Of a DNA stretch of 64,000 nucleotides, positions 1 to 45,094 are shown one piece after another. Each line of letters starts with the position of its first letter. Within the stretch, counting starts at the first letter, position 1. Source of the stretch: a phage; assembly GCA_028909515.1 (NCBI GenBank), contig GCA_028909515.1_4811.1. One strand, written 5' to 3'. The notes under the pieces were generated by a model. That model saw nothing but the letters and a program-made list of their open reading frames with translations. It was not told the origin of the DNA and searched no databases. The position numbers were made by a program, and so were the translations under genes.

Positions 1-124
1 TCAAGTACCCTGTCAATCCTGCAACTTCGATTGTGGCCTTATTCTGCACGGAAAGTGCTGCCTTTTTGATTCGGCATCTGAGCATCAATCCTTCATCAAG
101 CACTTGGCTTGTGCCATCCGGCAT
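1..124 (-). CDS. hypothetical protein, partial (3' end beyond window start)
   Basis: Minus-strand frame open from an ATG near 124 to the window edge, directly downstream of the tape measure gene; no clear SD. Confidence 0.25.
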   Translation of the reverse strand, partial: MPDGTSQVLDEGLMLRCRIKKAALSVQNKATIEVAGLTGYL

Positions 125-161
125 AGATAAGGTGACTTTAAGTATTCTCTTTTTCAAATTA

Positions 162-2342
162 TCACCACTTCAAAGGTGTAGCAGTAAGGTTGTTTATGTC
201 GTTGATATCATCTTGTTCAAGCACTCGTTTCGTTTCGAATGCCGTGCTGCGCGGGTCTTGAGCGCCGTTGACGTTGATGACAACATTTTTCTGACCCATA
301 GTAATATCACGCCCACCAGGTCGACTATTCGCGGAAAGGTCGCCGCCGTATTTCTGGAATGCTTCAAGTTGGAATGCAGCAAGACGAGCGTTTTTCATCG
401 CTTCGGCTTGAATGTTTGGTCTTACACCTGGAGTTGAAGCAAGCTGCATGTTTTTAATATAATCCCTTTGCGTTCCAAGTTTAAGGTAAGTTTGAGCAAA
501 GTCAATATCACCTTTGTTAACTTGCCCCTGCATTAACTGCTCAACAGGCACGTTCAGGTATCCTGCAATGGCTTCTTGCAACTGCCTGTATTGCACAGTT
601 TGGCGCGATTGGCCTTGTACTGGTGCATAGCTGCCCTTTGGCGCTTCCGCTCCGCTACCGCTAAGGACTGGCGTTACTGGTGCACCTTGCGGCGCTGCCG
701 TGGCATACTCACCATTGGATTGTCGGTCGAGAGCGGCCATGACCTTTCCAGGATACGCGCGTGTGTTCTTGCCCCAGCCGCTGCGGTCGTAGCCACCGTG
801 ATACATCGTCAGCGCAAGATTCCAATCGCCGTTGGCAGCGTTTAAATACTCTTTCAAAAGTTGAGCGCCGCCCATAATGTTTTGTCGGGGGTCACTGCCA
901 TCTGTTATTCCAAGACCCTTGAAGTTGGAAGGCATGATTTGCATCAAGCCAGTCGCGCCTGCTCCGCTCACAGCATTTGGATTGAATCCAGATTCAACTT
1001 CAGTCACAGCTTTCATCATCGCTACAGGTATTCCATAGCGTTTTGAAGCTTCCTCATATATCGAGTCATATGCTGTCGGGTTGCCTGATCCAAGATTATT
1101 CCCTACGGTCGCGCCAGTATTCAATGCTGGTGTTCCAGGCATCGCGGATTGACCTGCACTTCGCCCTATCTCACCAGCCCATGCAGCCCACGCTTGTCGC
1201 TCATCAATGACGCCAGCAAAAGTTGAAACAGCACTTGAAAACAGGTTGATGTCGCGAGTGAAAAGCGCCTGTGCAGAACGTTGTTCAGCTGCGTTCTGCT
1301 CTTGATTCCTCTGGCGTTTAATATCGCCATCAGCCATTTGTGTGATCCATCGGTCAACAGCTCTTTCGTGACGTTCATTTACAGCGGCCTGCTTGTCGAA
1401 CGGATGTTTCAAGTCAGAGATGAAGTTGTCGACAAATTCGCTCCATCCGTCAGACATTCTTTGGAACATCATTTGGAATCCTTCGACTGTATCAGCAGTT
1501 TTGCTGACAAGAGTCGAGAATGCAGGCATGACATTTTCACCAATTACCAGCTCAATACGCCGCCAATCTTCTTGAATTTGCCCCATACTATTTCGTATAG
1601 TCTCAAGAGCAGCTTGTTGGCGCTGCAGCTTTGCCGTTTCCTCATCGCTTATGCGCGTGCTTTCTTTTACAGACTGGTTGCGCTCGCGAAGGGCGCGGAC
1701 TTCATCAGCCGTGAATCCTGCCAATGCACCAATAGCACGAGCGGTCTGCTCATTAACGCTTCTCAGCTTTGTTCCAATTTCATCAAGCAGCTGGTTTGTG
1801 TCTTTTATGCCGCCGTTACTGTTGAAAGGACTTGTGCCCATCTTGTTAAGCAATAAGTTGTCCTTGTTCATTACATCAGGGTTGGTGTATGCATTGAACG
1901 CCAAATTAGAAGCTTTACTGATTAAATCACGCGACCCCTGTGCGCCAAGGATTCCACCTGAACTTTCATTCAACTGTCGTTGTAATTGTTCGACACCCAT
2001 TGGAGAGAGTCCGGCTTCAAAGCCAAGCTTTCTTTGCGCTTCGTATTCTTTTCGAACATCAACGATGGATTTGACAACGACGGCCAATCCTGCGACAACA
2101 GGAACGAGCGCGGCAAAGCGATATGTCAGCCGCGCAAGCATTCCGTCAATTGACCCTAGCTCACCAGTAAGGGGCTTTAGCTCGCCAAAAATATCTTTGA
2201 ATGCTCCAGAGAAATCTTTGCCAGCTGATTTTGCCTTTTTGTTTGTCTGATCAACTTTATCTTGCAATTGCTCAAGACGATTGATGGACTCTTTCAAGTC
2301 CACCGTATATTGAAGTACAAATTTTTCTAATGAGTCAGACAC
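162..2342 (-). CDS. tail tape measure protein with C-terminal lytic transglycosylase (SLT-like) domain
   Basis: 726-aa ORF; coiled-coil and hydrophobic N-terminal half; SLT-like motif 'GLMQIMPSNF...ALTMYHGGY'; lies at the distal end of the sheath/tube gene block. Confidence 0.75.
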   Translation of the reverse strand: MSDSLEKFVLQYTVDLKESINRLEQLQDKVDQTNKKAKSAGKDFSGAFKDIFGELKPLTGELGSIDGMLARLTYRFAALVPVVAGLAVVVKSIVDVRKEYEAQRKLGFEAGLSPMGVEQLQRQLNESSGGILGAQGSRDLISKASNLAFNAYTNPDVMNKDNLLLNKMGTSPFNSNGGIKDTNQLLDEIGTKLRSVNEQTARAIGALAGFTADEVRALRERNQSVKESTRISDEETAKLQRQQAALETIRNSMGQIQEDWRRIELVIGENVMPAFSTLVSKTADTVEGFQMMFQRMSDGWSEFVDNFISDLKHPFDKQAAVNERHERAVDRWITQMADGDIKRQRNQEQNAAEQRSAQALFTRDINLFSSAVSTFAGVIDERQAWAAWAGEIGRSAGQSAMPGTPALNTGATVGNNLGSGNPTAYDSIYEEASKRYGIPVAMMKAVTEVESGFNPNAVSGAGATGLMQIMPSNFKGLGITDGSDPRQNIMGGAQLLKEYLNAANGDWNLALTMYHGGYDRSGWGKNTRAYPGKVMAALDRQSNGEYATAAPQGAPVTPVLSGSGAEAPKGSYAPVQGQSRQTVQYRQLQEAIAGYLNVPVEQLMQGQVNKGDIDFAQTYLKLGTQRDYIKNMQLASTPGVRPNIQAEAMKNARLAAFQLEAFQKYGGDLSANSRPGGRDITMGQKNVVINVNGAQDPRSTAFETKRVLEQDDINDINNLTATPLKW

Positions 2343-2345
2343 AGT

Positions 2346-2762
2346 TTACCCCTTATTTGGAGTCTCGCCGCTGAGGAATGGCGCGATTAATCGCATCGAT
2401 TCGCCGATGAATGCTGCAGCCATTTCGCCGCCAGCCTGTTCCCAGTAGCCTTCACGCTCGGCGTGGGTGTCTGGGTTTATACCGTTCTCCATGAGAACTG
2501 CTTCAAATACTTCTTTAAGGTTTTCCCAGTCACCAAGATGGTTGTCAATTAGTGCACCAGTGCTTAATGGGATTTCTTGCCCCACGTCAAGCTCGACTTT
2601 TGCAAAGCTCAACACTTCCATCGTATACTCTGAACGAAAAGCAGGGTCTTTCGACATTGCAAATTCTACGAATCGACGCTGAATATTCCAGCCTTCCATC
2701 GCAGTCATTTTGTTGATTTTAATTTCTACTGTACGACCAGTTTGTTTGTTGGTGATCTTCAT
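2346..2762 (-). CDS. hypothetical tail-module protein
   Basis: 138-aa ORF tiled between tube genes and tape measure; starts 2 nt after upstream stop. Confidence 0.45.
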   Translation of the reverse strand: MKITNKQTGRTVEIKINKMTAMEGWNIQRRFVEFAMSKDPAFRSEYTMEVLSFAKVELDVGQEIPLSTGALIDNHLGDWENLKEVFEAVLMENGINPDTHAEREGYWEQAGGEMAAAFIGESMRLIAPFLSGETPNKG

Positions 2763-2763
2763 T

Positions 2764-3324
2764 CTATATTCCTACTGTTGATTTTATTTTATTATATAAC
2801 GAACTCACAGTTGTAGTCAAACTGACTGGTTCTTTAATAGCAACACCATTTGATGATTCGTCTGCGGATTGTTTAGGGTCGAAGCTTCCTTGAATGCTAA
2901 ATGACGTTTGCTCGAAAGTTATTACTATTGAGACGCCATTCAAGTTTTCTTCTGACTGGGTTATTTCAACGTCAGACATCGACATTTTACTGGCAATGAT
3001 GCTTCGGGAAGTTATTGAAAATGTGACTTCGTCATCATCAAATGCATTTATGATATTTTCAATTGTAGACTGATCATTGCAAATTACGTTTAACGCCATA
3101 TGGGCTGGCATTACAACCTTTGCCGCCTGTAAATTGCTTACTGATGATGTGCTTGACACTTCGACGACCTGCATTGCTGTACCAGCAAGAGGGAATTGAG
3201 TTGTTTCTGCGGGGGATGTTATTTCTGCAGAAACAGGTGAAAGCCTTGTCCAGACAGGAAGACCTGTTGACTCATTCGTTATGGTCAAAGATTGACCAGA
3301 AAGCAGAATCGAAACGAAGTCCAT
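2764..3324 (-). CDS. hypothetical tail-module protein
   Basis: 186-aa ORF in co-directional tail gene array. Confidence 0.45.
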   Translation of the reverse strand: MDFVSILLSGQSLTITNESTGLPVWTRLSPVSAEITSPAETTQFPLAGTAMQVVEVSSTSSVSNLQAAKVVMPAHMALNVICNDQSTIENIINAFDDDEVTFSITSRSIIASKMSMSDVEITQSEENLNGVSIVITFEQTSFSIQGSFDPKQSADESSNGVAIKEPVSLTTTVSSLYNKIKSTVGI

Positions 3325-3857
3325 CAGAACATCCCCTTGATACCATTCATCACCTTTGTAGCAACGCCAGTGACGCTGGCAGAAGTTTCTTTTATGTATG
3401 CAATGCCGCGCTCTATTACTGTTGAGTCGCCTGCCTGCGCTGTTTGAATAGACACATCCTGCTGTGTTAATATCTCATGGAATACCAATTGTATGGGTTG
3501 CGACGTTATATTGTCAGCGTCCTGGCTGAAGTTGTTATTTTGCAGCACCATACGTTCGAATATTAAACCACGGGAATTAATTGTGTATATAGTCGACCTG
3601 TTTTGCAACATCTTAGCTATTGCATCTGATGCGCTTTTTGTTTGTGCTATCACGGTGACAGTCAGTATTCGCGGCATCTTTACTCTGCCATCGACAATAT
3701 AGCTGCCATCTTCCCTTTGGTTTTTGAATATCTTTGCTTGGAGTCTTATTTTGACGTTGACTATTGCCCATCCAAGCGTGGATACTTCTCCAAGGTTGAA
3801 GCTCTTTATCGTGAAGCTTCTGTTTGATAAACTATATGACAATAAATCGATAGCCAT
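3324..3857 (-). CDS. hypothetical tail-module protein
   Basis: 177-aa ORF abutting neighbours (1-nt overlaps). Confidence 0.45.
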   Translation of the reverse strand: MAIDLLSYSLSNRSFTIKSFNLGEVSTLGWAIVNVKIRLQAKIFKNQREDGSYIVDGRVKMPRILTVTVIAQTKSASDAIAKMLQNRSTIYTINSRGLIFERMVLQNNNFSQDADNITSQPIQLVFHEILTQQDVSIQTAQAGDSTVIERGIAYIKETSASVTGVATKVMNGIKGMF

Positions 3858-13069: not shown

Positions 13070-13159
13070 CCACCCTCAAATAAGTATTGTGTATTATATC
13101 TAATGAAAAAAACTTAGGCAAACAATAATTATGGTTTGAATATGTATAACAACCGATAT

Positions 13160-13455
13160 AGCCGCGCCTTTATTAGTGTGATACGGATGATACGGATAAA
13201 ATGAGGCGTATTTTTATCCGTATCGGTGTATAAGCCGCGCTATCACTGGTGTGCTACGGATGATACGGATGATACGGATACTTTTCATATATAAGAGTTT
13301 ATAAAAAAATAAAATTAAATTAGATATATAATTTTAAATTAATTTATTTGAATTCCTATATAGTACGGCGGCAACGCGTATCATCCGTATCATCCGTAAG
13401 ATTCTTTTGAAAACAACAACTTACTTGATACGGATGATACGTCATTATACGTATA
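13160..13455. repeat. iteron-flanked AT-rich element, copy 1
   Basis: Direct and inverted copies of TACGGATGATACGGAT (13179-13198, 13216-13226, 13255-13280, inverted 13377-13400, 13427-13445) around an ~85-bp AT-rich core; homologous to 29030..29365. Confidence 0.7.
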
Positions 13456-13632
13456 AAACTTGCGGCAATCCTTTGCCGATGAATTCAGTGAATATTAAAT
13501 AGCACTCCTGCCACTAAAACGCCAATCAACATCGAGTCATAAACAGCCCATTTCCAAGAAAGCAAAGAGTTGCAATTAATATTTCGCACTTTAACATAAC
13601 GTGACTGAATAATCTTTTGCATAACTTCCTCT

Positions 13633-24977: not shown

Positions 24978-25358
24978 ATGTCAAATAAAAATGATTCTAT
25001 GAGCCACACATATACTAAAGGCAGCGGCACCGCTTTTGGTTCAAGTATGAAAATTGACGCTCCATCTTGCTATTCTGATGGATTGGAAGTTGGCAACCGT
25101 GACTTGACATGGGTTTTACGTCGCCAATCCGATTTAGAAGAGAAGTTGGAAAATATTGAGCGTTCTCTTGAAAGTCTGCGCGACCAGCTTTTTGGTTGTT
25201 CTGGAGATGAGTCAAAACCTGTATCATATGCAGCCAATCGCGGTTTGATTGATAATATGCTTGCTATTACCGCTCGATCAATTGGTAAAACTGTGTCCAT
25301 TGAATCATTGATCAGCCAGATTGCGGATGGCTTTGGTGATGCCCATAAGAGTGAGTAG
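24978..25358 (+). CDS. hypothetical protein
   Basis: Start set at 'MSNKND' behind AAAGGTAATGAT; a hairpin terminator lies in the longer ORF-track N-terminus. Confidence 0.45.
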   Translation: MSNKNDSMSHTYTKGSGTAFGSSMKIDAPSCYSDGLEVGNRDLTWVLRRQSDLEEKLENIERSLESLRDQLFGCSGDESKPVSYAANRGLIDNMLAITARSIGKTVSIESLISQIADGFGDAHKSE

Positions 25359-26070
25359 TGGGTGTTGGTTATTTAACCGTGAATCGTGGGTCGTGAATCT
25401 TGGGTCGCTTAGTGCGGCCCTTTCTTTTGCCTGCCGTGCAGGAGTGTACTGCAAATTTACTGTGGGTACAAAATAGTACGGTACTGTCTAGGATTTTTTC
25501 TTTGAAAAGTTAGTGGACCAAATGTGTCGTATTTTGATTAGTGTACTACAAATTTCATCAAGTACCAAAACGCACCAAAAGACCCATGCCATAAAAACCA
25601 CACGAACGCAATAATCAATCGCCGTTACAGTTTCCAGCGTTACAATTCGAAAGCGAATGATTCGAAGCATAATAATATGAAGCATAATGATTCGAAAGCG
25701 AATGATTGCGTGTAGGATAATATCGGTGGGGATTATTCTAGATGCATGTAATTTCGCATGCGTACTATTTTCGGACGAAGGGTCGGCATATTCCTCGTTT
25801 TAGTTCGGAACGAAGGGAAAGTTTTGCGCCTTTATAAAACAACGACTTACGCGACCCTCCCTAACGGTCCGATATAGGTGTCTATATAAAACAACGACTT
25901 ACGCGATGTTCTCCATTTAACGTAATACCCGTTATGCGAACTAAGGCGCATCTCGGCGAAGATTATGCGACGACGAAGGGAAGGATAAAGGAGTTTTCGC
26001 GGAGAAGCGCATCGGGATAGGGACGAAGAAAAGCCGCGACTAAGCGCGGCCTATTAGTAACGGAAGGGTA
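25359..26070. repeat. repeat-dense non-coding region between convergent genes
   Basis: Two copies of ATAAAACAACGACTTACGCGA; GTGAATC(G/T)TGGGTCG twice; GTGTACT(G/A)CAAATTT twice; permuted repeats of CGAAAGCGAATGATT and GAAGCATAAT; about five ACGAAGGG-type copies. Confidence 0.6.
26015..26040 (-). terminator. rho-independent terminator of 26071..26361
   Basis: Minus-strand hairpin GCCGCG...CGCGGC followed by TTTTCTTC. Confidence 0.55.
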
Positions 26071-26361
26071 TTATAAGGAGACGATTTTAAAATAAGTTAC
26101 TTCGCCGCCAAGTTGCGGGACCGCGATATATTCGCCGCCGATTTCGGTAATCGTATAGACGAAGCCGTTGATGGTTACGCGGTAGGATACTACGTCCTCG
26201 TCGCGATACTTGTAAAGGTCGAGGAAGTTGATCGGCTCATAAATAGACTCGATAGTCGCGTCTACGTTAGAGAGATAAACGCTCTCTAAGGTTTCGCCAA
26301 ATACGTTAGAGTTTTCGGAAGTCTCGACGCGAGCGGAACGGATAGCGGATAAAGTAATCAT
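26071..26361 (-). CDS. small acidic protein, paralog family (copy A)
   Basis: 96 aa, Glu/Asp-rich; own promoter, AGGAG RBS and terminator; similar to 26995..27279 ('SIR.A.VE...NVD.TIE...NG..Y...EIG'). Confidence 0.6.
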   Translation of the reverse strand: MITLSAIRSARVETSENSNVFGETLESVYLSNVDATIESIYEPINFLDLYKYRDEDVVSYRVTINGFVYTITEIGGEYIAVPQLGGEVTYFKIVSL

Positions 26362-26427
26362 AATATTCTCCTAGTTAGTCGGGAGGGTAGCGACCTATTC
26401 GCTACCTCATCCCCTCTCGATATAAAC

Positions 26428-26456
26428 ATTATAGTCTTAGTGTACGAATAAGTAAA
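26428..26456 (-). promoter_or_regulatory. sigma70-like promoter for acidic paralog A
   Basis: Minus-strand TTTACT-N17-TATAAT with internal TACACT. Confidence 0.55.
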
Positions 26457-26466
26457 GCACTTTTCG

Positions 26467-26769
26467 TTATTCTGCGATAAAATATTTATAAGCTTTATCG
26501 CCTTCTATATCGAGATACTCGACGATAATTAACGCTTCGCCGCGCGGCGTAACGGTTTCGATGAGGGTTACGGTTTCGTCGTCGGCCCGAATGAAGCGGA
26601 TGGCGCTACGTTCGGCGTACTTAATCTCGTCGAAGGAAAGGCCGACGAAGGCGACCGCGCGGACTTTAATTCCGCTCCACTCTAGTTCCGCGTTAACGGC
26701 TTTAAGAAGAGAAGCGACGGTTAAGCGGTCTTCGTCGTAAGTAAGAAGAGAAGAAATTAAAGTAGCCAT
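26467..26769 (-). CDS. small acidic protein, paralog family (copy B)
   Basis: Start at 'MATLISS' behind GGGAG RBS; acidic; same promoter architecture as copies A and C. Confidence 0.55.
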   Translation of the reverse strand: MATLISSLLTYDEDRLTVASLLKAVNAELEWSGIKVRAVAFVGLSFDEIKYAERSAIRFIRADDETVTLIETVTPRGEALIIVEYLDIEGDKAYKYFIAE

Positions 26770-26825
26770 AATAAAACTCCCGATGCTAGTAGAAGGAAGG
26801 GCCATCACCCGTCTCGATATAAACA

Positions 26826-26854
26826 AGTATACGCGAGTGTACGAAGAAGTAAAG
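26826..26854 (-). promoter_or_regulatory. sigma70-like promoter for acidic paralog B
   Basis: Minus-strand TTTACT-N16-TATACT with internal TACACT. Confidence 0.55.
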
Positions 26855-26898
26855 AAAAAAAGATAAAATAATTTATCTCATTTTTATCGAAAAAGTGC

Positions 26899-26926
26899 TT
26901 TACTTTTTTCTACACTATATTATAAT
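26899..26926 (+). promoter_or_regulatory. sigma70-like promoter for acidic paralog C (divergent from B)
   Basis: GTGCTTTACTT-N-TACACT-N-TATAAT; -35 TTTACT, 16-bp spacer. Confidence 0.55.
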
Positions 26927-26994
26927 GTACTCATATCGGGACGGGATGAGTTAACGAATAGGTCGTTAACGCCTCTCCCAACTAGGAGTTTAAA

Positions 26995-27279
26995 ATGGCT
27001 ATTCTTAACGTTTCTTCTATTCGCAACGCTATCGTCGAGAACTACGGCGTAAAACAAATTTTATCCGAAGTCTACGCCGCGAACGTAGACCAAACTATCG
27101 AGGCGGGTGGGGTAACGGTCGCCGAGGCTTTTAAACTTTACGCGGCGCTACCGGAATCGGACCGCGAAGCCTTCGAAGTAAACGTTAACGGATACTTCTT
27201 CGAAGCGGTCGAAATCGGTAACATCTTACTCGTTATGGGCGAAGAAGAATTTGAGACCTTCTCCCTCGTCGAAGCGTAA
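26995..27279 (+). CDS. small acidic protein, paralog family (copy C)
   Basis: 94 aa, about 14 Glu versus 4 basic residues; AGGAG RBS; promoter TTTACT-N16-TATAAT upstream. Confidence 0.6.
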   Translation: MAILNVSSIRNAIVENYGVKQILSEVYAANVDQTIEAGGVTVAEAFKLYAALPESDREAFEVNVNGYFFEAVEIGNILLVMGEEEFETFSLVEA

Positions 27280-27359
27280 GAGAGGATTTTTAGAGCGTCG
27301 TGCGCGGCGCTTTAATAAAATTCTTTCGCGCCTAGCGCCCTAACAAATAGGAGTTTATT

Positions 27360-27986
27360 ATGGTTAGCTTAAATCGTTTCTCGACTAGCGGCGACGTTAT
27401 CGCAACTAAGACCGCCGACCTCGTTGCATTTTATAATGCAAATTCCGGTTCGAAGCCGATTAAGAAATTTGCGGACCGCCGGACCGCCGAGACTCGCGTA
27501 ATCGCGTTAATCGAGTCCTTAAACGCGCTCGATGAGCCGTCCAACGAATCGCCCATTCCCGACGCGAAGCCGCGCGAGGAAGTGTCCAGCGATGTAAAAA
27601 CGCATAAGGCGCGCGCGGTCGTTAAAAAGGCCGAGCCGACCCAGGAAGAACTCGACGCGATGAGCGATGAAGAGTATGAAGCCTTCGTTAAGAGCGGCTT
27701 AAACGATAGTGCGAATTGCGTAGTGCAAAATGGAACTCCTTCCCATCGCCGTTCGAATAGCGAAGGTATTGCAAAAAGTTGGGATAATAAGGAAGTGGCG
27801 CAAAAGCGTCTTACTCGTAACGGTGTTATGGTCGAGGGTGTAGGCGAGTTCAAATCGGTCCGCGTAGCGTTCGCCGCGCTGGGCTTACCGGATAGCAAGC
27901 ATATTCGCTTCCGCATGAAGCTTAAAGAAGCTGGACGCTTAAACTTCGAGTTCGGCAACAAGTCCTACACCTTCCAGATTATCTAA
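27360..27986 (+). CDS. hypothetical protein
   Basis: 208 aa; AGGAG RBS; CpG-rich, CTG-poor codon usage like the adjacent paralogs; hairpin terminator follows. Confidence 0.55.
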   Translation: MVSLNRFSTSGDVIATKTADLVAFYNANSGSKPIKKFADRRTAETRVIALIESLNALDEPSNESPIPDAKPREEVSSDVKTHKARAVVKKAEPTQEELDAMSDEEYEAFVKSGLNDSANCVVQNGTPSHRRSNSEGIAKSWDNKEVAQKRLTRNGVMVEGVGEFKSVRVAFAALGLPDSKHIRFRMKLKEAGRLNFEFGNKSYTFQII

Positions 27987-27992
27987 TCGAAT

Positions 27993-28014
27993 GGCGGCCC
28001 TTCGGGGTCGCTTT
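27993..28014 (+). terminator. rho-independent terminator after 27360..27986
   Basis: GCGGCCC-ttcg-GGGTCGC (one G-U pair) followed by TTTT. Confidence 0.5.
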
Positions 28015-28036
28015 TCATAGTGCAAATTGGTGGATT

Positions 28037-28300
28037 ATGAATACTCTTATTCTCATCGCTACGTTGTCCATCGGAAGTGGTCGCACCTTATCCCTTTATG
28101 ACCATAGTGCAAATTGCGCTTACCCTACGCGCGTTGCGGCGATAGTTAATAGTGCAAATAAGATGCTATTCGAGACTTGCTGGCGGGTCGATAACGAGAA
28201 AGGTCGGGTAGTCTTAGGTTATAGTGCAAATCTGCTGGTGGAGTCGTTCGATTGGACGGCTGAAGGTCGTAAATTGTTACGTAAAGTGACTAAAAGATGA
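28037..28300 (+). CDS. hypothetical protein with in-frame 'SAN' repeats (doubtful)
   Basis: 87-aa ORF carrying three in-frame copies of ATAGTGCAAAT, with further copies flanking it; may be a DNA-level repeat array, not a gene. Confidence 0.3.
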   Translation: MNTLILIATLSIGSGRTLSLYDHSANCAYPTRVAAIVNSANKMLFETCWRVDNEKGRVVLGYSANLLVESFDWTAEGRKLLRKVTKR

Positions 28301-28345
28301 CTTATAATAATACACTTTCTAACGCGTTTATGGTTGCAACCTTCC

Positions 28346-28402
28346 CCGTCGTATTACCGACGGCCCTAGAAGTGGAGAAAATGTGTTCTAGGGCCGTTTT
28401 AT
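28346..28402 (+). terminator. tandem-hairpin terminator
   Basis: CCGTCG-tattac-CGACGG, then CGGCCCTAGAA-N14-TTCTAGGGCCG followed by TTTTAT. Confidence 0.45.
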
Positions 28403-28414
28403 AGTGCAAATTGG

Positions 28415-28888
28415 CTAGTGGCGGGAGAATTGCTCGCCTTCTTTGGCCGCCTCTCCAAAATCCTTGTAGAAATCGTCCATAGAACGGCCCATTTTACTAT
28501 TGCCGTTTTCATCAATCATCGTGATGCCGTAGATGATATTCAGTTCACGAATAGCATTAAGCTTGGCTGACGCCGCGACTTCTGGATCACGCACAAGCTT
28601 GACCAAATTGTGAATTGCACCTTTTACGCTCCACAAATCCTTGAGTGGCATCTCTTCCATACGCTTTTTGAAGCGCATTTTGTAGTATGGGTTGCGTTGC
28701 GCGCAAAGGATTCGCTGGCCAGTGTAGTTATCCGTTGCAACTTCCATTCCAAATACTAGTGCAAAAGCTGCGCGCATGTCATGGCCCTGAATAACAAGGT
28801 CAATGAACTCATCGAATAAAGCCTGATTGTGCTCTGCAAATCGCGGGTCTTCAAAGTCTTCAGGCATCGCTACATAATCTTGACTCAT
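28415..28888 (-). CDS. hypothetical protein
   Basis: Start set at 'MSQDYVAM'; three ATAGTGCAAAT-type copies lie at or just upstream of the start. Confidence 0.5.
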   Translation of the reverse strand: MSQDYVAMPEDFEDPRFAEHNQALFDEFIDLVIQGHDMRAAFALVFGMEVATDNYTGQRILCAQRNPYYKMRFKKRMEEMPLKDLWSVKGAIHNLVKLVRDPEVAASAKLNAIRELNIIYGITMIDENGNSKMGRSMDDFYKDFGEAAKEGEQFSRH

Positions 28889-29029
28889 AGTGCAAAATCC
28901 CATAGTGCAAATTAATAGTGTGAATTATACAATGGATGGACATTATATTCAAGTGCAGATTGATGTTCATTATGGCTATAAACGTACACAAATCATAGTG
29001 CTGATAGAGTTGCGGACCGTGGTGCGTGG

Positions 29030-29365
29030 TGTACTGTTTGATACGTATAAAAGAAATCCATCCCTTTCGCCGCTTGCTATGCAAATCAATGACTTAGCCG
29101 CTGCTGGCTGGTTGAAGCGTATCATGACGTATCATCCGTATTGCCGCAAGTCTTTGTTTTTACTTATATCTTACGGATGATACGTATAAATATAAGTTTA
29201 GTATAAGTATGAGGATGTAGAAAAAAATTAATTTAAATTAATTCAAAATGGAGTTAATTAATTTTCTGGAATTCTATATATATTATGTTTGCACCCGTAT
29301 CATCCGTATCAGCGTATTTTTCCTTATAAATCAATAGCCCAATGATACGTCATGATACGTATGAA
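29030..29365. repeat. iteron-flanked AT-rich element, copy 2
   Basis: TACGGATGATACG-type iterons at about 29117-29140 (inverted), 29171-29187, 29294-29314 (inverted), 29342-29362 around an AT-rich core sharing 'AAAAAAATTAATTTAAATTAATT' and 'GAATTCTATATA' with copy 1. Confidence 0.7.
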
Positions 29366-29855
29366 TGACTGCCTTCGCGGCAAAACAATCCCAGTGTATA
29401 CCAACAATCCCAGGCGCGGCGCACCACAGGGCCACGGTACAATATCCTGTGAAGAGGTGACTCTCATTTCCTTATACGTATCATCATGGACTACGATTAC
29501 TAAAACTAAAAACATTATTAAAATTCTGAGCACCAACACCACAAGCACCAAGACCCACGGCTAACGCACCGTTAGCCAATACTCCACGATAAAATATCCT
29601 ATAAATTACAAACAATCCGCGTATATAATAGCACCATAATTATTTATTTTTGATTCAATATTTACACTAAAATAAGCCATTGTATTTTCCTCACTGTTCT
29701 ATCCGTATTATTTAGTGGATTAAACTGTCATAAATACTTATAAACGTTGATTGCCACAATATGCAATAATCTTGATAAATTATTATAATATTTTCGCTCT
29801 CTTAAATTACAGCCTTGAATCGTAAATAACCACAAAAAGCCTCACATTACACAGG

Positions 29856-29880
29856 CAAACAAAAAGGGCCAATCGGCCCT
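29856..29880 (-). terminator. rho-independent terminator ending the minus-strand early array
   Basis: Minus-strand GGGCC-gatt-GGCCC followed by TTTTTG. Confidence 0.6.
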
Positions 29881-29897
29881 CTTAACATTAATCATAA

Positions 29898-30350
29898 TTA
29901 AAATATAAAATTCTTCACTCCAAGCCTTTTGAATTCTTTCCTTAACATTATATTAAACTTCTTCAATTTAGTTTTATTCATCCTTAGCGGATTGTAGGTG
30001 AACACCTTTTCTATTACTTCCTTACGCATCTTTGAGCGCATATTAGTTAAGTAATAATTCTTGAACATATTAATAAGGTGATTGGCTTCCAGCTTAAGCT
30101 CAATTACTTCTTCCGATTCATCAAGCTCAAGCAGTCCTTTTTGCGTAAGAATATCTCTTAATATATCCTGACATTTCTTGCAATCACCTTTGCCTAAAAG
30201 CGAGTCGATGTAATCGCCGCTGACGCGCTCATCACCGAAATAAGTTGCGCGACCACAAAGGCTTTGCACTTCTCCTTCATCAAAGTAGTGCGCACGATGA
30301 GCCCACTTCGGTATGGCCCAACCAGCGGCGATAAGCTTTTTACCCATCAC
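29898..30350 (-). CDS. hypothetical protein
   Basis: 150-aa basic ORF, last gene of the minus-strand early array; terminator downstream. Confidence 0.5.
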   Translation of the reverse strand: MMGKKLIAAGWAIPKWAHRAHYFDEGEVQSLCGRATYFGDERVSGDYIDSLLGKGDCKKCQDILRDILTQKGLLELDESEEVIELKLEANHLINMFKNYYLTNMRSKMRKEVIEKVFTYNPLRMNKTKLKKFNIMLRKEFKRLGVKNFIF

Positions 30351-34397: not shown

Positions 34398-34630
34398 TTT
34401 GCATACTCCATAGCATATCGCTGCAACTTGAATGCAGCCTTGTTTAGTTGCTTGTGTCTTGCGTACAAGCGCTCACGTTCTTCTTCAGGGCAATCGGCAC
34501 GAAGAATAGACATGGCAATACTTGACATGGCATTAAGGGTGCGCTGAAAGGCAGACACCATGCGCAACTCATTGCGCTTATTAAAAGACAACTTACCCAG
34601 CGCGGCATTCATAATTGCACCTCGACACAC
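34394..34630 (-). CDS. hypothetical protein
   Basis: 78-aa ORF, 4-nt overlap. Confidence 0.45.
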   Translation of the reverse strand: MCRGAIMNAALGKLSFNKRNELRMVSAFQRTLNAMSSIAMSILRADCPEEERERLYARHKQLNKAAFKLQRYAMEYAK

Positions 34631-42911: not shown

Positions 42912-44095
42912 TGAACATTCCAGAATTTAATGATGAGCCAGTTATTCAGTTTAACGCGCAACAAATCGATGCCATCGAGAAGGCCGTTGCATGGTACAAG
43001 CGATTGCAGGACGGTAAAACGACGAAGCGCGTGTTTTTCATTGCTGGCTATGCAGGGACTGGTAAAACCTCTATTGCTCGCGAGATTGTGCGCCGATGTG
43101 TCGGTGAGTACGGCGCTATCTATATTGCGCCGACCGGAAAGGCTGCAAGCCGATTAAAGCAAAAAGGCTGTCGTGGAGCTAAGACCCTCCACCAGTTCAT
43201 CTATAACGTGCGCGGCGTAAATGACGATAATGAGCCAATCTTTTCGAGAAAGTCAAAGCTGGATGAAAGGCCGCACCTTGTTGTACTCGATGAAGCGTCG
43301 ATGGTTGGCGAGTGGGACACAGAGCGCCTTCTTGATCACCGCATCCCTGTCCTGGCATTAGGCGACATTGGACAAGTACCTCCGGTAAAATCCGCCGCCT
43401 ACTTTACTGAAGATGCCGTTGACGTACTGTTAACAGAAATCATGCGGCAAGGGAAAGAGTCCAATATAATCCGCGCCTCCTTCTTCGTGCGCCAAGGCAA
43501 CCGCCTTCCTCCGCGTGAATACGATGACGTCAAAGTATTGGCAGAATCGCCGCGCGTTACTGCATTGAAGAAATTCATGGGCGAAGATGATCAAATTATT
43601 TGCTCCTATAATAGCACCAAAGATAAATGGAATTCATTATTACGGCAAGTGAGCGGACGTATAACGCCAATGCCAGGAATCGGCGAGAAAGTTATTTGCA
43701 CCTTCAACCAGCACGGGCCAGGATTCTGTAATGGCGAGCAAGGGATTGTTATTAGCTATGAGCCAGTGCCGGACTTTGAAAGGGACGAGGACGAGTCCAA
43801 TGAAATAATGTATGTCAATTTGCGCTCGCTTACCGATGGCAAAGATATAAAGGTTAAGATTAATCCTCTTTCCTTCTCTACTGATCAGGAAGTGCGCAAA
43901 GAGGCCCAACGCGCTGTTGGAGGCATGGACTATGGCTATGTCATCACGGTGCACAAATCACAAGGCAGCGAGTGGGACAATGTGTGCGTGCTGGAAGAAA
44001 TCTTACGCGGCGTTCCGTACTCCAAGATGATGTACACCGCTGTCACCCGTGCTAAGAAGAATCTGACCGTGTACCGTGATTTGAAAGCGCGTTAA
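42911..44095 (+). CDS. ATP-dependent DNA helicase (Dda/RecD-like, SF1)
   Basis: Walker A 'GYAGTGKTS', Walker B 'VLDEASMV', C-terminal 'VHKSQGSEWD'. Confidence 0.8.
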   Translation: MNIPEFNDEPVIQFNAQQIDAIEKAVAWYKRLQDGKTTKRVFFIAGYAGTGKTSIAREIVRRCVGEYGAIYIAPTGKAASRLKQKGCRGAKTLHQFIYNVRGVNDDNEPIFSRKSKLDERPHLVVLDEASMVGEWDTERLLDHRIPVLALGDIGQVPPVKSAAYFTEDAVDVLLTEIMRQGKESNIIRASFFVRQGNRLPPREYDDVKVLAESPRVTALKKFMGEDDQIICSYNSTKDKWNSLLRQVSGRITPMPGIGEKVICTFNQHGPGFCNGEQGIVISYEPVPDFERDEDESNEIMYVNLRSLTDGKDIKVKINPLSFSTDQEVRKEAQRAVGGMDYGYVITVHKSQGSEWDNVCVLEEILRGVPYSKMMYTAVTRAKKNLTVYRDLKAR

Positions 44096-44169
44096 TGTTG
44101 ACGTAAATTTACGAAAAATAAAACTGAAAATCAGTTTAATTAAAGTGGCATTGCCGCCATAGTTTTTAG

Positions 44170-44198
44170 TTGCTACTGGCGGCGACTGAAGGCATAAT
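44170..44198 (+). promoter_or_regulatory. sigma70-like promoter of the K/E/A-rich protein gene
   Basis: TTGCTA-N17-CATAAT. Confidence 0.5.
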
Positions 44199-44254
44199 TA
44201 AGTTATCCCAAACGGGGAATATAAAATAAACTAATTTATTTAAGGACTGTGAAT

Positions 44255-45094
44255 ATGGCCGAAGCAATCAAAGTATTATCTAAAGAAGAAAAACAAGCAG
44301 CCGCAGCAGAACGTCGTCGCGTGGCTGAAGAAAAACGCCTGGCTAAAAAGAAAGAAGCCGAAGAAAAACGCCAGAAGCGTGAGCAGGAAAAACAAGCCAA
44401 GCGTGAAGAAGCTGCGCTGAAACGCAAGCAGGCTGCTGATGAGAAGGCTCAGAAGCGTGCTGAAGAAGCAGCTAAGAAAGCTAAAGAGCGTGCAGAAAAG
44501 GCTGCTGCTAAGAAAGCAGAGCGTGAAGCCGCTAAAGCAGCAAAAGAAATCGAAAAGGCAAAGGCTAAAGAAGAAGCCAAGCGCCTGAAAGCTGAGCAGG
44601 CTGCGGCCAAGAAAGCAGAGCGTGATCAAGCCCGTGCTGCAGCGAAGGCCGAAAAAGAGAAGGCCAAAGAAGAAGCTAAAGCGAAACGCAAGGCAGAGCG
44701 TGAAGCTGCTAAGATTGCGGCGAAAGAAGCTGCAGAACAGCAGAAAGAACAGCGTAAGAAAGAAGCTGAAGAACGTCGCAAAGCCATCGCAGAACGTAAG
44801 GCTGCTAAAAAGGCAAACGGTCAGCGTCGTGCAAAAGCCACTCACTTCATCTACACTGGCAATGGCCTGAGCCAGCCGCAAGAGCATTCCACCCGTGGAC
44901 GCGTTCTGGCGGCGATCAAAGAAGGCGAAGTTGGCGTGGCGCAGTCTATCGATGAGCTGGGCGAAAAAGTTAAAGATCAACTGTTTGGCGCTTCCGTTCG
45001 CTCCTACCTGAGCAAGCTGGAAGAGATGGGCCACATCGAGTTTGTCGATGTTGAATCCAACGGCGATGCCGAAGACGGTGATCAAGCGGAATAA
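44255..45094 (+). CDS. Lys/Glu/Ala-rich charged helical protein (histone H1-like low complexity)
   Basis: About 190 aa of K/E/A/R repeats then a ~85-aa globular C-terminus; own promoter and terminator; host-optimal codons; ATG at 44255 preferred over GTG at 44249 for RBS spacing. Confidence 0.6.
   Translation: MAEAIKVLSKEEKQAAAAERRRVAEEKRLAKKKEAEEKRQKREQEKQAKREEAALKRKQAADEKAQKRAEEAAKKAKERAEKAAAKKAEREAAKAAKEIEKAKAKEEAKRLKAEQAAAKKAERDQARAAAKAEKEKAKEEAKAKRKAEREAAKIAAKEAAEQQKEQRKKEAEERRKAIAERKAAKKANGQRRAKATHFIYTGNGLSQPQEHSTRGRVLAAIKEGEVGVAQSIDELGEKVKDQLFGASVRSYLSKLEEMGHIEFVDVESNGDAEDGDQAE

What the first reader, a model, noticed from the sequence alone, without database searches (positions are those of the whole stretch)
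25359..26070. 700-bp non-coding stretch packed with several direct repeat families between convergent genes
Contains a 21-bp direct repeat ATAAAACAACGACTTACGCGA (twice), GTGAATC(G/T)TGGGTCG (twice), GTGTACT(G/A)CAAATTT (twice), permuted repeats of CGAAAGCGAATGATT and GAAGCATAAT, and about five ACGAAGGG-type copies. It is 3' of both flanking genes, so it is not a simple promoter region. Candidates: a structured non-coding RNA, a replication origin or packaging site with protein-binding iterons, or a recombination hotspot.
Basis: seen in the sequence. Interest (0 to 1): 0.55.

Follow-up and report, generated by a model that had tools for sequence, protein, structure and literature searches.

The report
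Phage genome end inside repeat-rich spacer
This 700-bp non-coding stretch is where the unique DNA of a Wifcevirus coliphage meets its 3.7-kb direct terminal repeat, so it holds two back-to-back transcription terminators, one physical end of the packaged chromosome, and conserved flanking DNA that most likely guides formation of that end; this is an expected kind of element whose sequence details have not been described.

Summary

**Identity.** The window is a Wifcevirus, an E. coli myovirus of about 68 kb. Four related phages with mapped ends (Mansfield and Ro157lw by PhageTerm, WFH by PacBio read ends, SP13 by duplicated copies) put the inner end of the 3.5–3.9 kb direct terminal repeat (DTR) at one junction. 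That junction is ...ACGCACCA|AAAGACCC... = window 25577|25578, inside the flagged region.

**Anatomy.**
- Two convergent intrinsic terminators bound a ~600-bp spacer.
- The spacer has no coding signature, no Rfam match, no fold signal, no DnaA/IHF/GATC sites and no host homologue.
- Its diversity (π 0.037; 0.027 at the terminus) is about three times below near-neutral third-codon sites of conserved DTR genes (0.12).
- Two of the repeat families are copy-number-variable tandem arrays.

**Best reading.** This is a cis-acting terminus region for sequence-specific DTR end formation. It resembles T5 LTR "Repeat Region 3" and the T7 pac sites in layout, not in sequence. That the terminus lies here is near certain. 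Terminase binding to the repeats is inferred.

**Rating.** Ordinary in kind, undescribed in detail; modest interest.

The parts
24978..25358 (+). Left flanking gene (126 aa from the ATG; the ORF is open from 24912). It is the last gene of the rightward-transcribed unique region. Function unknown.
   Evidence: It is annotated as a hypothetical protein in all relatives. No Pfam or PHROG match. π 0.113.
25378..25407 (+). 14-bp tandem repeat CGTGAATC(G/T)TGGGT, 2.1 copies, overlapping the 5' arm of terminator T1. It varies in copy number.
   Evidence: TRF. Most relatives have one copy, and Mansfield has GTGGGTC expanded about five times.
25402..25428 (+). Intrinsic terminator T1 for the + strand gene: GGGTCGC-TTAGT-GCGGCCC followed by TTTCTTTT.
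   Evidence: Annotated as a terminator in WFH and WFC. Stems are invariant apart from a 1-nt insertion in one of the 19 phages, and the loop varies.
25444..25458 (+). Repeat B, copy 1: GTGTACTGCAAATTT, on the unique side, 120-134 nt from the terminus.
   Evidence: Identical in 15 of 19 phages. It is part of the densest GTAC cluster in the window.
25496..25497 (.). Alternative DTR boundary reported only for phage WFC (DTR 3784 bp), 81 bp outside the consensus terminus.
   Evidence: Ends were set from PacBio read ends. Unexplained.
25541..25555 (+). Repeat B, copy 2: GTGTACT(A/G)CAAATTT, on the unique side, 23-37 nt from the terminus.
25577..25578 (.). Inner DTR boundary, which is the right physical end of the virion DNA (...CAAAACGCACCA | AAAGACCCATGC...). 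It is the presumed terminase cleavage or nicking position.
   Evidence: Mansfield PhageTerm DTR 1-3673 maps here without gaps. WFH, Ro157lw and SP13 each carry two identical DTR copies that end at this junction. The junction +/-12 nt is invariant in 16 of 19 phages. The 50-bp window containing it has the lowest diversity, π 0.013.
25578..29249 (.). The single collapsed copy of the direct terminal repeat, 3672 bp in this window.
25623..25712 (+). Array of about six units of 15-bp period (2 x CGTTACARTT..., then 4 x TCGAA(A)GC(G/AT)AATGAT), 45-135 nt inside the DTR.
   Evidence: Bas100 lacks exactly 45 bp, which is three units. Diversity is higher in its right half, π 0.086.
25761..25817 (+). 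Two 22-nt repeats, 35 bp apart, each ending in ACGAAGGG (CGTACTATTTTCGGACGAAGGG and CGTTTTAGTTCGGAACGAAGGG).
   Evidence: The second copy is invariant in 19 of 19 phages.
25830..25906 (+). Two 25-nt repeats CT(T/A)TATAAAACAA(C/G)GACTTACGCGA, 52 bp apart.
   Evidence: Both copies are present in all 19 phages with at most 2 substitutions. π 0.013 at 25870-25919. There are no other copies in the window.
25973..25980 (+). Third exact ACGAAGGG copy.
26022..26052 (-). Intrinsic terminator T2 for the minus-strand DTR genes: AGGCCGCG-CTTAGT-CGCGGCTT followed by TTCTTCGT.
   Evidence: Annotated as a terminator in Mansfield, WFH and WFC. Invariant in 19 of 19 phages.
26071..26361 (-). Right flanking gene (96 aa), the last DTR gene before the spacer. 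Hypervariable.
   Evidence: π 0.138.
28415..28903 (-). Small terminase (TerS) gene inside the DTR, 346 bp from the left physical end.
   Evidence: phmmer against PDB 7uxe, the E217 small terminase, E = 6e-34.
29249..29250 (.). Outer DTR boundary, which is the left physical end (...TTCAAAAT | GGAGTTAATT...). It is the partner site of the terminus in the finding.
   Evidence: Same junction in Mansfield, WFH, WFC, Ro157lw and SP13.

Best explanation
The flagged stretch is the junction between the unique genome and the long direct terminal repeat (DTR) of a Wifcevirus. It has three layers.

1. Two convergent Rho-independent terminators (T1 at 25402-25428 on +, T2 at 26022-26052 on -) close the late tail-fibre transcription unit and the last DTR operon. 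They leave a spacer of about 600 bp that is probably little transcribed.
2. Inside that spacer, at 25577|25578, lies the sequence-defined right end of the packaged chromosome. During packaging from concatemers that carry one DTR per junction, the terminase (TerS is encoded in the DTR itself; TerL lies elsewhere) must cut or nick here and at the unrelated left-end site 29249|29250. The 3.7 kb between the two sites is duplicated so that each virion carries a copy at both ends.
3. The conserved non-coding DNA on both sides of the cut most likely holds the cis-acting recognition and architectural sites for this end-forming reaction. These are the GTGTAC-N2-CAAATT pair on the unique side, and the 22-nt and 25-nt repeat pairs and ACGAAGGG motifs on the DTR side.

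The two tandem arrays (the 14-bp unit at T1 and the 15-bp unit at 25623-25712) are slippage-prone and at most accessory.

**Shown:** position of the terminus by homology, the terminators, absence of coding and RNA signals, and purifying selection.
**Inferred:** that terminase or an accessory protein binds the repeats, and the nick-and-duplicate mechanism.
For: **Identity.** The window is 90-95% identical to 29 Wifcevirus genomes.

**Terminus.**
- Mansfield's PhageTerm DTR (record 1-3673) maps without gaps to window 25578-29249 (paper PMC6753283).
- Ro157lw (PhageTerm, 3533 bp; PMC6454146), WFH (PacBio read ends, 3701 bp; PMC6563267) and SP13 (3899 bp) each carry two identical copies ending at the same ...CGCACCA|AAAGACCC... 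junction.
- DTR lengths differ by up to 366 bp through internal indels while both junction sequences stay the same. The ends are therefore set by sequence, not by distance.

**Terminators.**, plus annotations.

**Constraint.**
- Spacer π is 0.031-0.047, against 0.113 and 0.138 in the flanking genes.
- On the wider baseline the spacer π is 0.037 (0.027 at the terminus), against 0.12 at third codon positions of TerS and of gene 27360. The spacer ranks 13th lowest of 218 equal-sized windows.
- The terminus +/-12 nt is invariant in 16 of 19 phages.

**TerS.** It is encoded in the DTR (7uxe, E = 6e-34).

**Precedent.** T5 has an untranslated, repeat-rich, highly conserved region that straddles its LTR end by 270 bp (bioRxiv 10.1101/866236). 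T7 uses separate pacB and pacC signals (PMC9860248).

**Alternatives excluded.**
Against: - The terminus is transferred by homology. The ends of this isolate itself were not measured.
- WFC's reported end lies 81 bp away.
- No motif is shared between the two termini beyond chance: 5 shared 8-mers against 8.2 expected. A single recognition sequence therefore cannot serve both ends.
- E217 TerS, the solved homologue, showed no appreciable DNA binding in vitro (PMC9611059).
- The repeat families nearest the array vary in copy number in viable isolates.
- The 25742-25763 palindrome is not conserved.
- The genus is shallow (spacer 94-97% identical in 28 of 29 records, 87.6% in Bas100, whose gap is the 45-bp deletion), so footprinting cannot resolve which motifs matter. 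Several coding stretches of the DTR are as conserved as the spacer.
- The spacer has no homologue outside Wifcevirus.
Confidence: 0.6

Rival explanations
1. Mostly passive spacer. Only a few bases at the cut site matter. The repeats are slippage and duplication debris that accumulates in untranscribed DNA between two terminators, and the low diversity reflects recent common ancestry or frequent recombination at DTR ends, not function.
For: Two repeat families are copy-number-variable tandem arrays. The 25742 palindrome is not conserved. The genus is shallow, and some DTR coding windows are as conserved as the spacer.
Against: Spacer π (0.037) is about three times below third-codon-position π (0.12) of adjacent conserved DTR genes in the same genomes. 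The immediately neighbouring genes are the most variable in the region, so neither ancestry nor DTR-wide homogenisation explains the dip. The 22-nt and 25-nt repeat pairs are kept in all 19 phages.
Confidence: 0.15
2. T5-like end-proximal control element. The conserved untranslated repeats at the inner end of the DTR act during DNA ejection or entry (an injection pause, anchoring or protection of the entering end), not in packaging.
For: The layout matches T5 Repeat Region 3: untranslated, packed with direct and inverted repeats, mostly in the LTR but overrunning into unique DNA, and better conserved than the neighbouring LTR ORFs. PhageTerm classed Ro157lw as 'T5-like long DTR'.
Against: No DnaA boxes, which are the conserved hallmark proposed for T5 iss, occur here. 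There is no sequence similarity. Two-step injection has never been reported for Wifcevirus. T5 is a siphovirus with unrelated ejection machinery.
Confidence: 0.08
3. Replication origin. The 15-bp array and the other direct repeats are iterons for a phage initiator, with unwinding in the lower-GC segment 25500-25700.
For: About six tandem 15-bp units. GC drops to 0.37 at 25500-25699, against about 0.46 genome-wide. In T7, secondary origins lie near the genome ends (own knowledge).
Against: There are no DnaA, IHF or Fis sites and no adjacent initiator gene. Bas100 lacks three of the units and is viable. The array is the least conserved part of the spacer. The far more AT-rich (GC 0.25-0.31) region at the other DTR end is a better origin candidate.
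Confidence: 0.08
4. Binding sites for a phage transcription or DNA-binding regulator unrelated to end formation. One example is the small 'transcriptional regulator' that some relatives encode next door; another is sites that insulate the late and DTR transcription units.
For: The paired 22-nt and 25-nt repeats look like operator pairs. F13, ECML-117, FEC19, Ro157lw and SP13 carry an extra 69-aa gene, labelled transcriptional regulator in three of these records, inserted at window 26086/26087.
Against: No gene starts in or next to the spacer and no promoter better than 9 of 12 is present. The repeats are equally conserved in phages that lack the regulator gene. The motifs occur nowhere else in the genome.
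Confidence: 0.06
5. A structured non-coding RNA is transcribed from the spacer.
For: A long conserved non-coding stretch.
Against: No Rfam match at gathering threshold, and one chance-level match (E = 0.38) that lies on terminator T2. Fold z-scores are -0.39 (+) and -1.0 (-). There is no good promoter, and terminators point into the spacer from both sides. The stretch is cut in two at the right DTR copy of every virion.
Confidence: 0.03

Closest known systems
Bacteriophage T5 left-terminal-repeat 'Repeat Region 3' (the iss region)
   Same: An untranslated region of 0.6-1.2 kb packed with direct repeats, inverted repeats and a tandem array. It is located at the inner end of a long DTR and overruns the DTR boundary into unique DNA. 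It is better conserved among relatives than the neighbouring DTR ORFs (compared).
   Different: No sequence similarity. T5's paired DnaA boxes are absent here. T5's DTR is 10 kb and its function is tied to two-step injection, which is unknown in Wifcevirus. T5 is a siphovirus; this phage is a Pbunavirus-related myovirus.
Bacteriophage T7/T3 concatemer junction (pacB recognition site, pacC cleavage site)
   Same: Exact, non-permuted direct terminal repeats generated from concatemers. Distinct, non-identical cis signals serve recognition and cutting at the two sides of the repeat. Short repeat arrays flank the T7 terminal repeat (own knowledge of Dunn and Studier 1983).
   Different: The T7 repeat is 160 bp, against 3.5-3.9 kb here. 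T7 processing involves a phage RNA polymerase promoter and a hairpin at the right end (own knowledge). No hairpin signal and no phage RNAP promoter were found here. The terminases are unrelated in sequence to the E217-type TerS.
Lambda cos (cosQ-cosN-cosB) and P1 pac
   Same: A cleavage point is flanked on both sides by repeated protein-binding elements that are needed for initiation or termination of packaging (own knowledge). Here the cut is flanked by a GTGTAC..CAAATT pair on one side and repeat arrays on the other.
   Different: Lambda makes cohesive ends and P1 uses headful packaging. IHF sites (lambda) and GATC/Dam hexamers (P1) are absent here.
Annotated DTRs of Wifcevirus phages Mansfield, WFC, WFH and Ro157lw
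   Same: The same element. The boundary is already recorded as a repeat_region in GenBank MK903282 and is reported in three papers.
   Different: Those reports give only the length of the repeat. None of the text I read describes the repeat families, the conservation of the spacer or a cis-acting role.

Membership tests
DTR terminus / packaging-end region of a non-permuted DTR phage | Coincides with a physical end of virion DNA. | tested here: met
   By homology: four relatives with mapped or duplicated ends share the junction at window 25577|25578. The ends of this isolate itself were not measured.
DTR terminus / packaging-end region of a non-permuted DTR phage | End position fixed by sequence, not by headful measuring. 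| tested here: met
   DTR lengths of 3533, 3673, 3701 and 3899 bp all have identical junction sequences at both boundaries. One exception is WFC at the inner boundary.
DTR terminus / packaging-end region of a non-permuted DTR phage | Cis-acting sequence conserved under purifying selection. | tested here: met
   π is 0.027-0.037, against 0.12 at third codon positions of conserved DTR genes. The junction +/-12 nt is invariant in 16 of 19 phages.
DTR terminus / packaging-end region of a non-permuted DTR phage | Bound and cut by the phage terminase; required for packaging. | not testable with these tools
   Needs EMSA or footprinting, in vitro cleavage, or deletion genetics.
Intrinsic (Rho-independent) terminators | GC-rich hairpin followed by a T-run at the 3' end of a gene, with the stem conserved. 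| tested here: met
   T1 and T2 were found by the scan. T2 is invariant in all 19 phages. The T1 stems are invariant apart from a 1-nt insertion in one phage, while its loop varies. Both are annotated as terminators in three records.
Iteron-type replication origin | Stable array of three or more iterons, with an adjacent AT-rich unwinding element, DnaA/IHF sites and an initiator gene. | tested here: not met
   The array exists but loses 3 units in Bas100. There are no DnaA, IHF or Fis sites. Minimum GC is only 0.37. No initiator gene is nearby.
Structured non-coding RNA | Match to a known family, or a fold more stable than shuffles, plus a promoter. | tested here: not met
   Rfam gives nothing at gathering level. 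Fold z-scores are -0.39 and -1.0. No promoter is better than 9 of 12. Covariation could not be tested at 94-97% identity.
T5 injection-stop (iss) region | Untranslated, conserved, repeat-rich region at the inner end of the long terminal repeat. | tested here: met
   compared.
T5 injection-stop (iss) region | Pairs of DnaA boxes within large inverted repeats. | tested here: not met
   No TTWTNCACA box occurs in 25359-26070. The long-range inverted repeats are weak (71-76% complementary).
T5 injection-stop (iss) region | Two-step DNA transfer. | not testable with these tools
   Needs an infection experiment.

The most novel reading that the evidence does not exclude
The spacer is the right-hand half of a bipartite, sequence-specified machinery that makes kilobase-long direct terminal repeats. 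One terminase acts at two unrelated sites 3.7 kb apart. The left site lies in an AT-rich quasi-palindromic module next to terS. The right site lies in this conserved 600-bp element. The 22-nt and 25-nt repeat pairs and the GTGTAC..CAAATT pair position a nick from which the whole DTR is copied. How long DTRs are generated is still unknown (Casjens and Gilcrease 2009, as quoted). Wifceviruses now grow on engineered E. coli K-12 (BASEL Bas98-101). This element would therefore give a genetically tractable handle on that question.
Probability: 0.3. Interest if true: 0.55.

Novelty: new member of a known kind. Interest (0 to 1): 0.3.

Why it matters
**Practical use.** The result gives the natural coordinates for this genome. 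The DTR is 25578-29249, and the virion DNA starts at 29249 reading leftward. It also explains why assemblies of these phages break or circularise here. It warns annotators against calling the small ORFs that several records place in the spacer.

**Biological use.** It defines a compact, conserved, non-coding target of about 150 bp around 25577|25578, plus two repeat pairs, for testing how long exact terminal repeats are cut and duplicated. That step is unresolved for T5-type and SPO1-type phages. The phage group can now be propagated on E. coli K-12 derivatives and is related to therapeutic Pbunaviruses, which by contrast are reported as circularly permuted.

Tried and rejected
1. **Structured RNA.** Rfam at gathering and E-value thresholds, and RNA folding of both strands, gave nothing.
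2. **Hidden small gene.** Ten ORFs of 25-65 aa were tested for intactness and codon-position bias in 19 phages, and none looks coding. The 65-aa ORF has no Pfam or PHROG match.
3. **Origin or host-factor boxes.** DnaA, IHF, Fis and GATC sites are all absent.
4. **Common recognition motif at the two termini.** Shared 8-mers are at or below chance.
5. **'Cut 12 nt after GTAC' rule.** It fits both the consensus and the WFC ends (P about 0.03). It was rejected because that GTAC is GTAG or GCAC in 8 of 19 phages, and SP13 (GTAG) keeps the consensus end. The GTAC cluster itself is real: 6 copies in 130 bp, the densest in a genome where GTAC is at half its expected frequency.
6. **Hairpin at the termini, as in T7.** ssDNA folds are no better than shuffles. 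The 25742-25763 palindrome is not conserved.
7. **Other copies of GTGAATCGTGGGTCG** at 34623 and 54751. They lie in coding sequence and look like chance matches.
8. **Deeper footprinting.** Distant blastn, IMG/VR, a metagenome scan and E. coli genomes returned only Wifcevirus copies 94-97% identical (Bas100 87.6%) and no host homologue. The Salmonella and Serratia phages with a related TerS are organised differently.
9. **Contigs ending at the terminus.** None was found. Assemblies read through the junction.

Full report
**1.

The stretch 25359-26070 lies between the stop codons of two convergent genes: 24978(24912)-25358 on the + strand and 26071-26361 on the - strand.

- The 21-mer ATAAAACAACGACTTACGCGA occurs at 25834 and 25886. 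It extends to a 25-mer with one mismatch, and the copies are 52 bp apart.
- GTGAATC(G/T)TGGGTCG occurs twice in tandem at 25379 and 25393.
- GTGTACT(G/A)CAAATTT occurs at 25444 and 25541.
- The interleaved CGAAAGCGAATGATT and GAAGCATAAT copies form one array of 15-bp period.
- ACGAAGGG has three exact copies plus two degenerate ones.

Repeated 9-mers cover 132 positions, against 20.9 +/- 19.4 (maximum 112) in 2000 Markov simulations. In a sliding scan, this is one of only three repeat-dense loci in the 64-kb window. The region has no paralogue elsewhere in the window.

**2. What genome this is.**

The window is 90-95% identical to 29 GenBank phages of the genus Wifcevirus. These are E. coli/Shigella myoviruses of about 68 kb, distantly related to Pseudomonas Pbunavirus. 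It contains no tRNA and no Rfam family at gathering threshold.

**3. The key fact: a chromosome end lies inside the region.**

- The GenBank record of phage Mansfield annotates a 3,673-bp direct terminal repeat predicted by PhageTerm (PMC6753283). A gap-free alignment puts that DTR at window 25578-29249.
- WFH, Ro157lw and SP13 were deposited with both DTR copies. In each, the two copies are identical and stop at the same junction...CAAAACGCACCA|AAAGACCCATGC... = window 25577|25578.
- The ends of Ro157lw came from an independent PhageTerm analysis (PMC6454146). The WFH ends came from positions where most PacBio reads stopped (PMC6563267).
- The DTRs are 3533, 3673, 3701 and 3899 bp long because of internal gene indels, yet both junction sequences are the same. 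The ends are therefore specified by sequence.
- WFC is the exception. Its inner boundary is 81 bp further out, at window 25496|25497, and I cannot explain it. WFC and Bas99 are the only two phages with a substitution within 12 nt of the consensus junction.
- The outer boundary, 29249|29250, is the same in all five records.

**4. Anatomy of the region.**

From left to right:

- A 14-bp tandem (25378-25407) merges into terminator T1 (25402-25428, + strand).
- A unique-side spacer runs from 25430 to 25577. It carries the GTGTAC-N2-CAAATT pair and the densest GTAC cluster of the whole window: 6 copies in 130 bp, while GTAC is at half its expected frequency genome-wide.
- The terminus lies at 25577|25578.
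- Inside the DTR come a ~90-bp array of 15-bp period (25623-25712), a pair of 22-nt repeats ending in ACGAAGGG (25761, 25796), a pair of 25-nt repeats (25830, 25882) and a third ACGAAGGG (25973).
- Terminator T2 (26022-26052, - strand) closes the region.

The 'inverted repeat' between 25406-25426 and 26026-26046 is simply the two terminators facing each other.

**5. Conservation.**

- In an alignment of 19 phages, the spacer has π = 0.031 on the unique side and 0.047 on the DTR side. The two flanking genes have 0.113 and 0.138. The minimum, 0.013, falls in the 50-bp window that contains the terminus.
- On a wider alignment covering the whole DTR, the spacer (0.037; 0.027 around the terminus) is about three times less diverse than third codon positions of the conserved DTR genes (0.123 in TerS, 0.117 in gene 27360). 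It ranks 13th lowest of 218 windows of equal size.
- Several coding stretches are equally conserved, and the genus is shallow. This shows constraint on the spacer as a whole but does not resolve which motifs carry it.
- Element by element:
  - The terminus +/-12 nt is invariant in 16 of 19 phages.
  - The second 22-nt repeat and T2 are invariant in all 19.
  - Both 25-nt copies are present in all, with at most two changes.
  - The T1 stems are invariant apart from one 1-nt insertion, and its loop varies.
  - The 25742-25763 palindrome is not conserved.
- The two tandem arrays are unstable. The 14-bp unit is single in most relatives and differently expanded in Mansfield. Bas100 lacks exactly three 15-bp units.

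**6. Alternatives tested.**

- **Coding.** None of ten small ORFs shows a coding signature. The scattered ORF calls in some records are inconsistent with one another.
- **RNA.** No Rfam match, fold z-scores of -0.39 and -1.0, no promoter better than 9 of 12, and terminators pointing inward.
- **Origin.** No DnaA, IHF or Fis boxes, only a mild GC dip, an unstable array and no initiator gene nearby.
- **P1-like Dam control.** No GATC sites.
- **T7-like hairpin.** No fold signal at either end.
- **Host-derived element.** No match in 5,426 E. coli genomes.
- **A shared motif at both termini.** None above chance.

**7. Mechanism proposed.**

The 162-aa protein encoded at 28415-28903, inside the DTR and 346 bp from the left end, is a homologue of the solved decameric small terminase of Pbunavirus E217 (7uxe, E = 6e-34). 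As in E217, it lies far from TerL.

I infer the following. Concatemers carry one DTR per junction. The terminase acts at two different sequence-defined sites, 29249|29250 and 25577|25578, and the 3.7 kb between them is duplicated so that each virion receives a copy at each end. This follows the T7 logic of separate pac signals, extended to a long repeat whose mode of generation is still unknown. The conserved DNA flanking 25577|25578 would supply recognition and architecture for the right-end reaction. The tandem arrays would be dispensable.

The position of the end, the terminators and the selective constraint are shown. Protein binding and the nick-and-copy step are inferred. A caution: E217 TerS showed no appreciable DNA binding in vitro.

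**8. Comparison with known systems.**

- The best organisational match is T5 'Repeat Region 3'. It is an untranslated, repeat-rich region, mostly inside the LTR but overrunning 270 bp into unique DNA, and more conserved than the surrounding LTR genes. Here about 450 bp lie inside the DTR and about 150 bp outside. There is no sequence similarity, and the DnaA boxes that characterise the T5 region are absent. The resemblance is therefore one of layout, not of family membership.
- The DTR itself is already on record for relatives. None of the text I read in those papers, in the BASEL description or in the vB_Eco4M-7 paper mentions the repeats or a cis-acting role.

**9. Verdict.**

The region is a new, undescribed instance of a known kind of element, a DTR terminus region. 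I rate its interest as modest.

The most novel reading still open is that it is half of a bipartite end-forming system. That would make the generation of long DTRs experimentally tractable in E. coli.

Noticed in passing
window 28904-29900 (outer DTR boundary at 29249|29250): The other genome end also lies in a long, non-coding, repeat-dense stretch, with GC 0.25-0.31 at 29600-29900. The cut sits in an AT-rich core bracketed on both sides by arrays of TACGGATGATACG / CGTATCATCCGTA motifs in both orientations, including an 18-nt perfect inverted repeat (29118-29135 with 29342-29359). Cumulative GC skew peaks here.
   Followed up: partly
window 13216-13460 (within the non-coding gap 13070-13632): This is a diverged paralogue of the left-terminus module: 66-69% identity over 200-250 nt in both orientations, E = 5e-22. 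It has the same GATACG arrays and the same AAATTAATTT/GAATTC core. In Mansfield it lies directly upstream of the capsid maturation protease gene. The terminal copy lies upstream of gene 001 and terS. This suggests a shared regulatory or promoter module for head and packaging genes, or a second origin/pac-like site.
   Followed up: partly
window 25496|25497: Phage WFC's deposited DTR (3784 bp) ends 81 bp beyond the junction used by Mansfield, WFH, Ro157lw and SP13. WFC and Bas99 are also the only phages with a substitution (C to T) within 12 nt of the consensus junction. It is not resolved whether this is a real alternative cut or an end-calling artefact.
   Followed up: partly
window 26086/26087: F13, ECML-117, FEC19, Ro157lw and SP13 carry an extra 210-bp gene (69 aa) inserted immediately downstream of the 96-aa gene. 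It is labelled 'transcriptional regulator' in F13, ECML-117 and FEC19. It accounts for much of the DTR length variation, and this window lacks it.
   Followed up: no
window 26071-26361 (-) and 26995-27279 (+): These two small DTR genes are paralogues (33% identity over 82 aa, E = 5e-7). They are the most variable segments of the DTR (π 0.13-0.18, against 0.03-0.07 elsewhere), which suggests diversifying selection or allele replacement. Neither has a Pfam or PHROG match.
   Followed up: partly
whole window; cluster at 25446-25565: GTAC occurs 122 times against about 247 expected from base composition, which may reflect restriction avoidance. Yet six copies cluster within 130 bp on the unique side of the terminus.
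   Followed up: partly
window ~43850-44900: This is the strongest repeat-dense locus of the window in the 9-mer scan, with up to 365 of 712 positions covered. It was not examined and may be a coding tandem repeat.
   Followed up: no
Pbunavirus versus Wifcevirus (literature): Pbunavirus genomes are described as terminally redundant and circularly permuted (PMC12345254 abstract). Wifceviruses, which have a homologous TerS, have exact long DTRs. This would be a switch of packaging mode within one family (Lindbergviridae) and may deserve comparison of the TerL nucleases and of the DNA upstream of terS.
   Followed up: no
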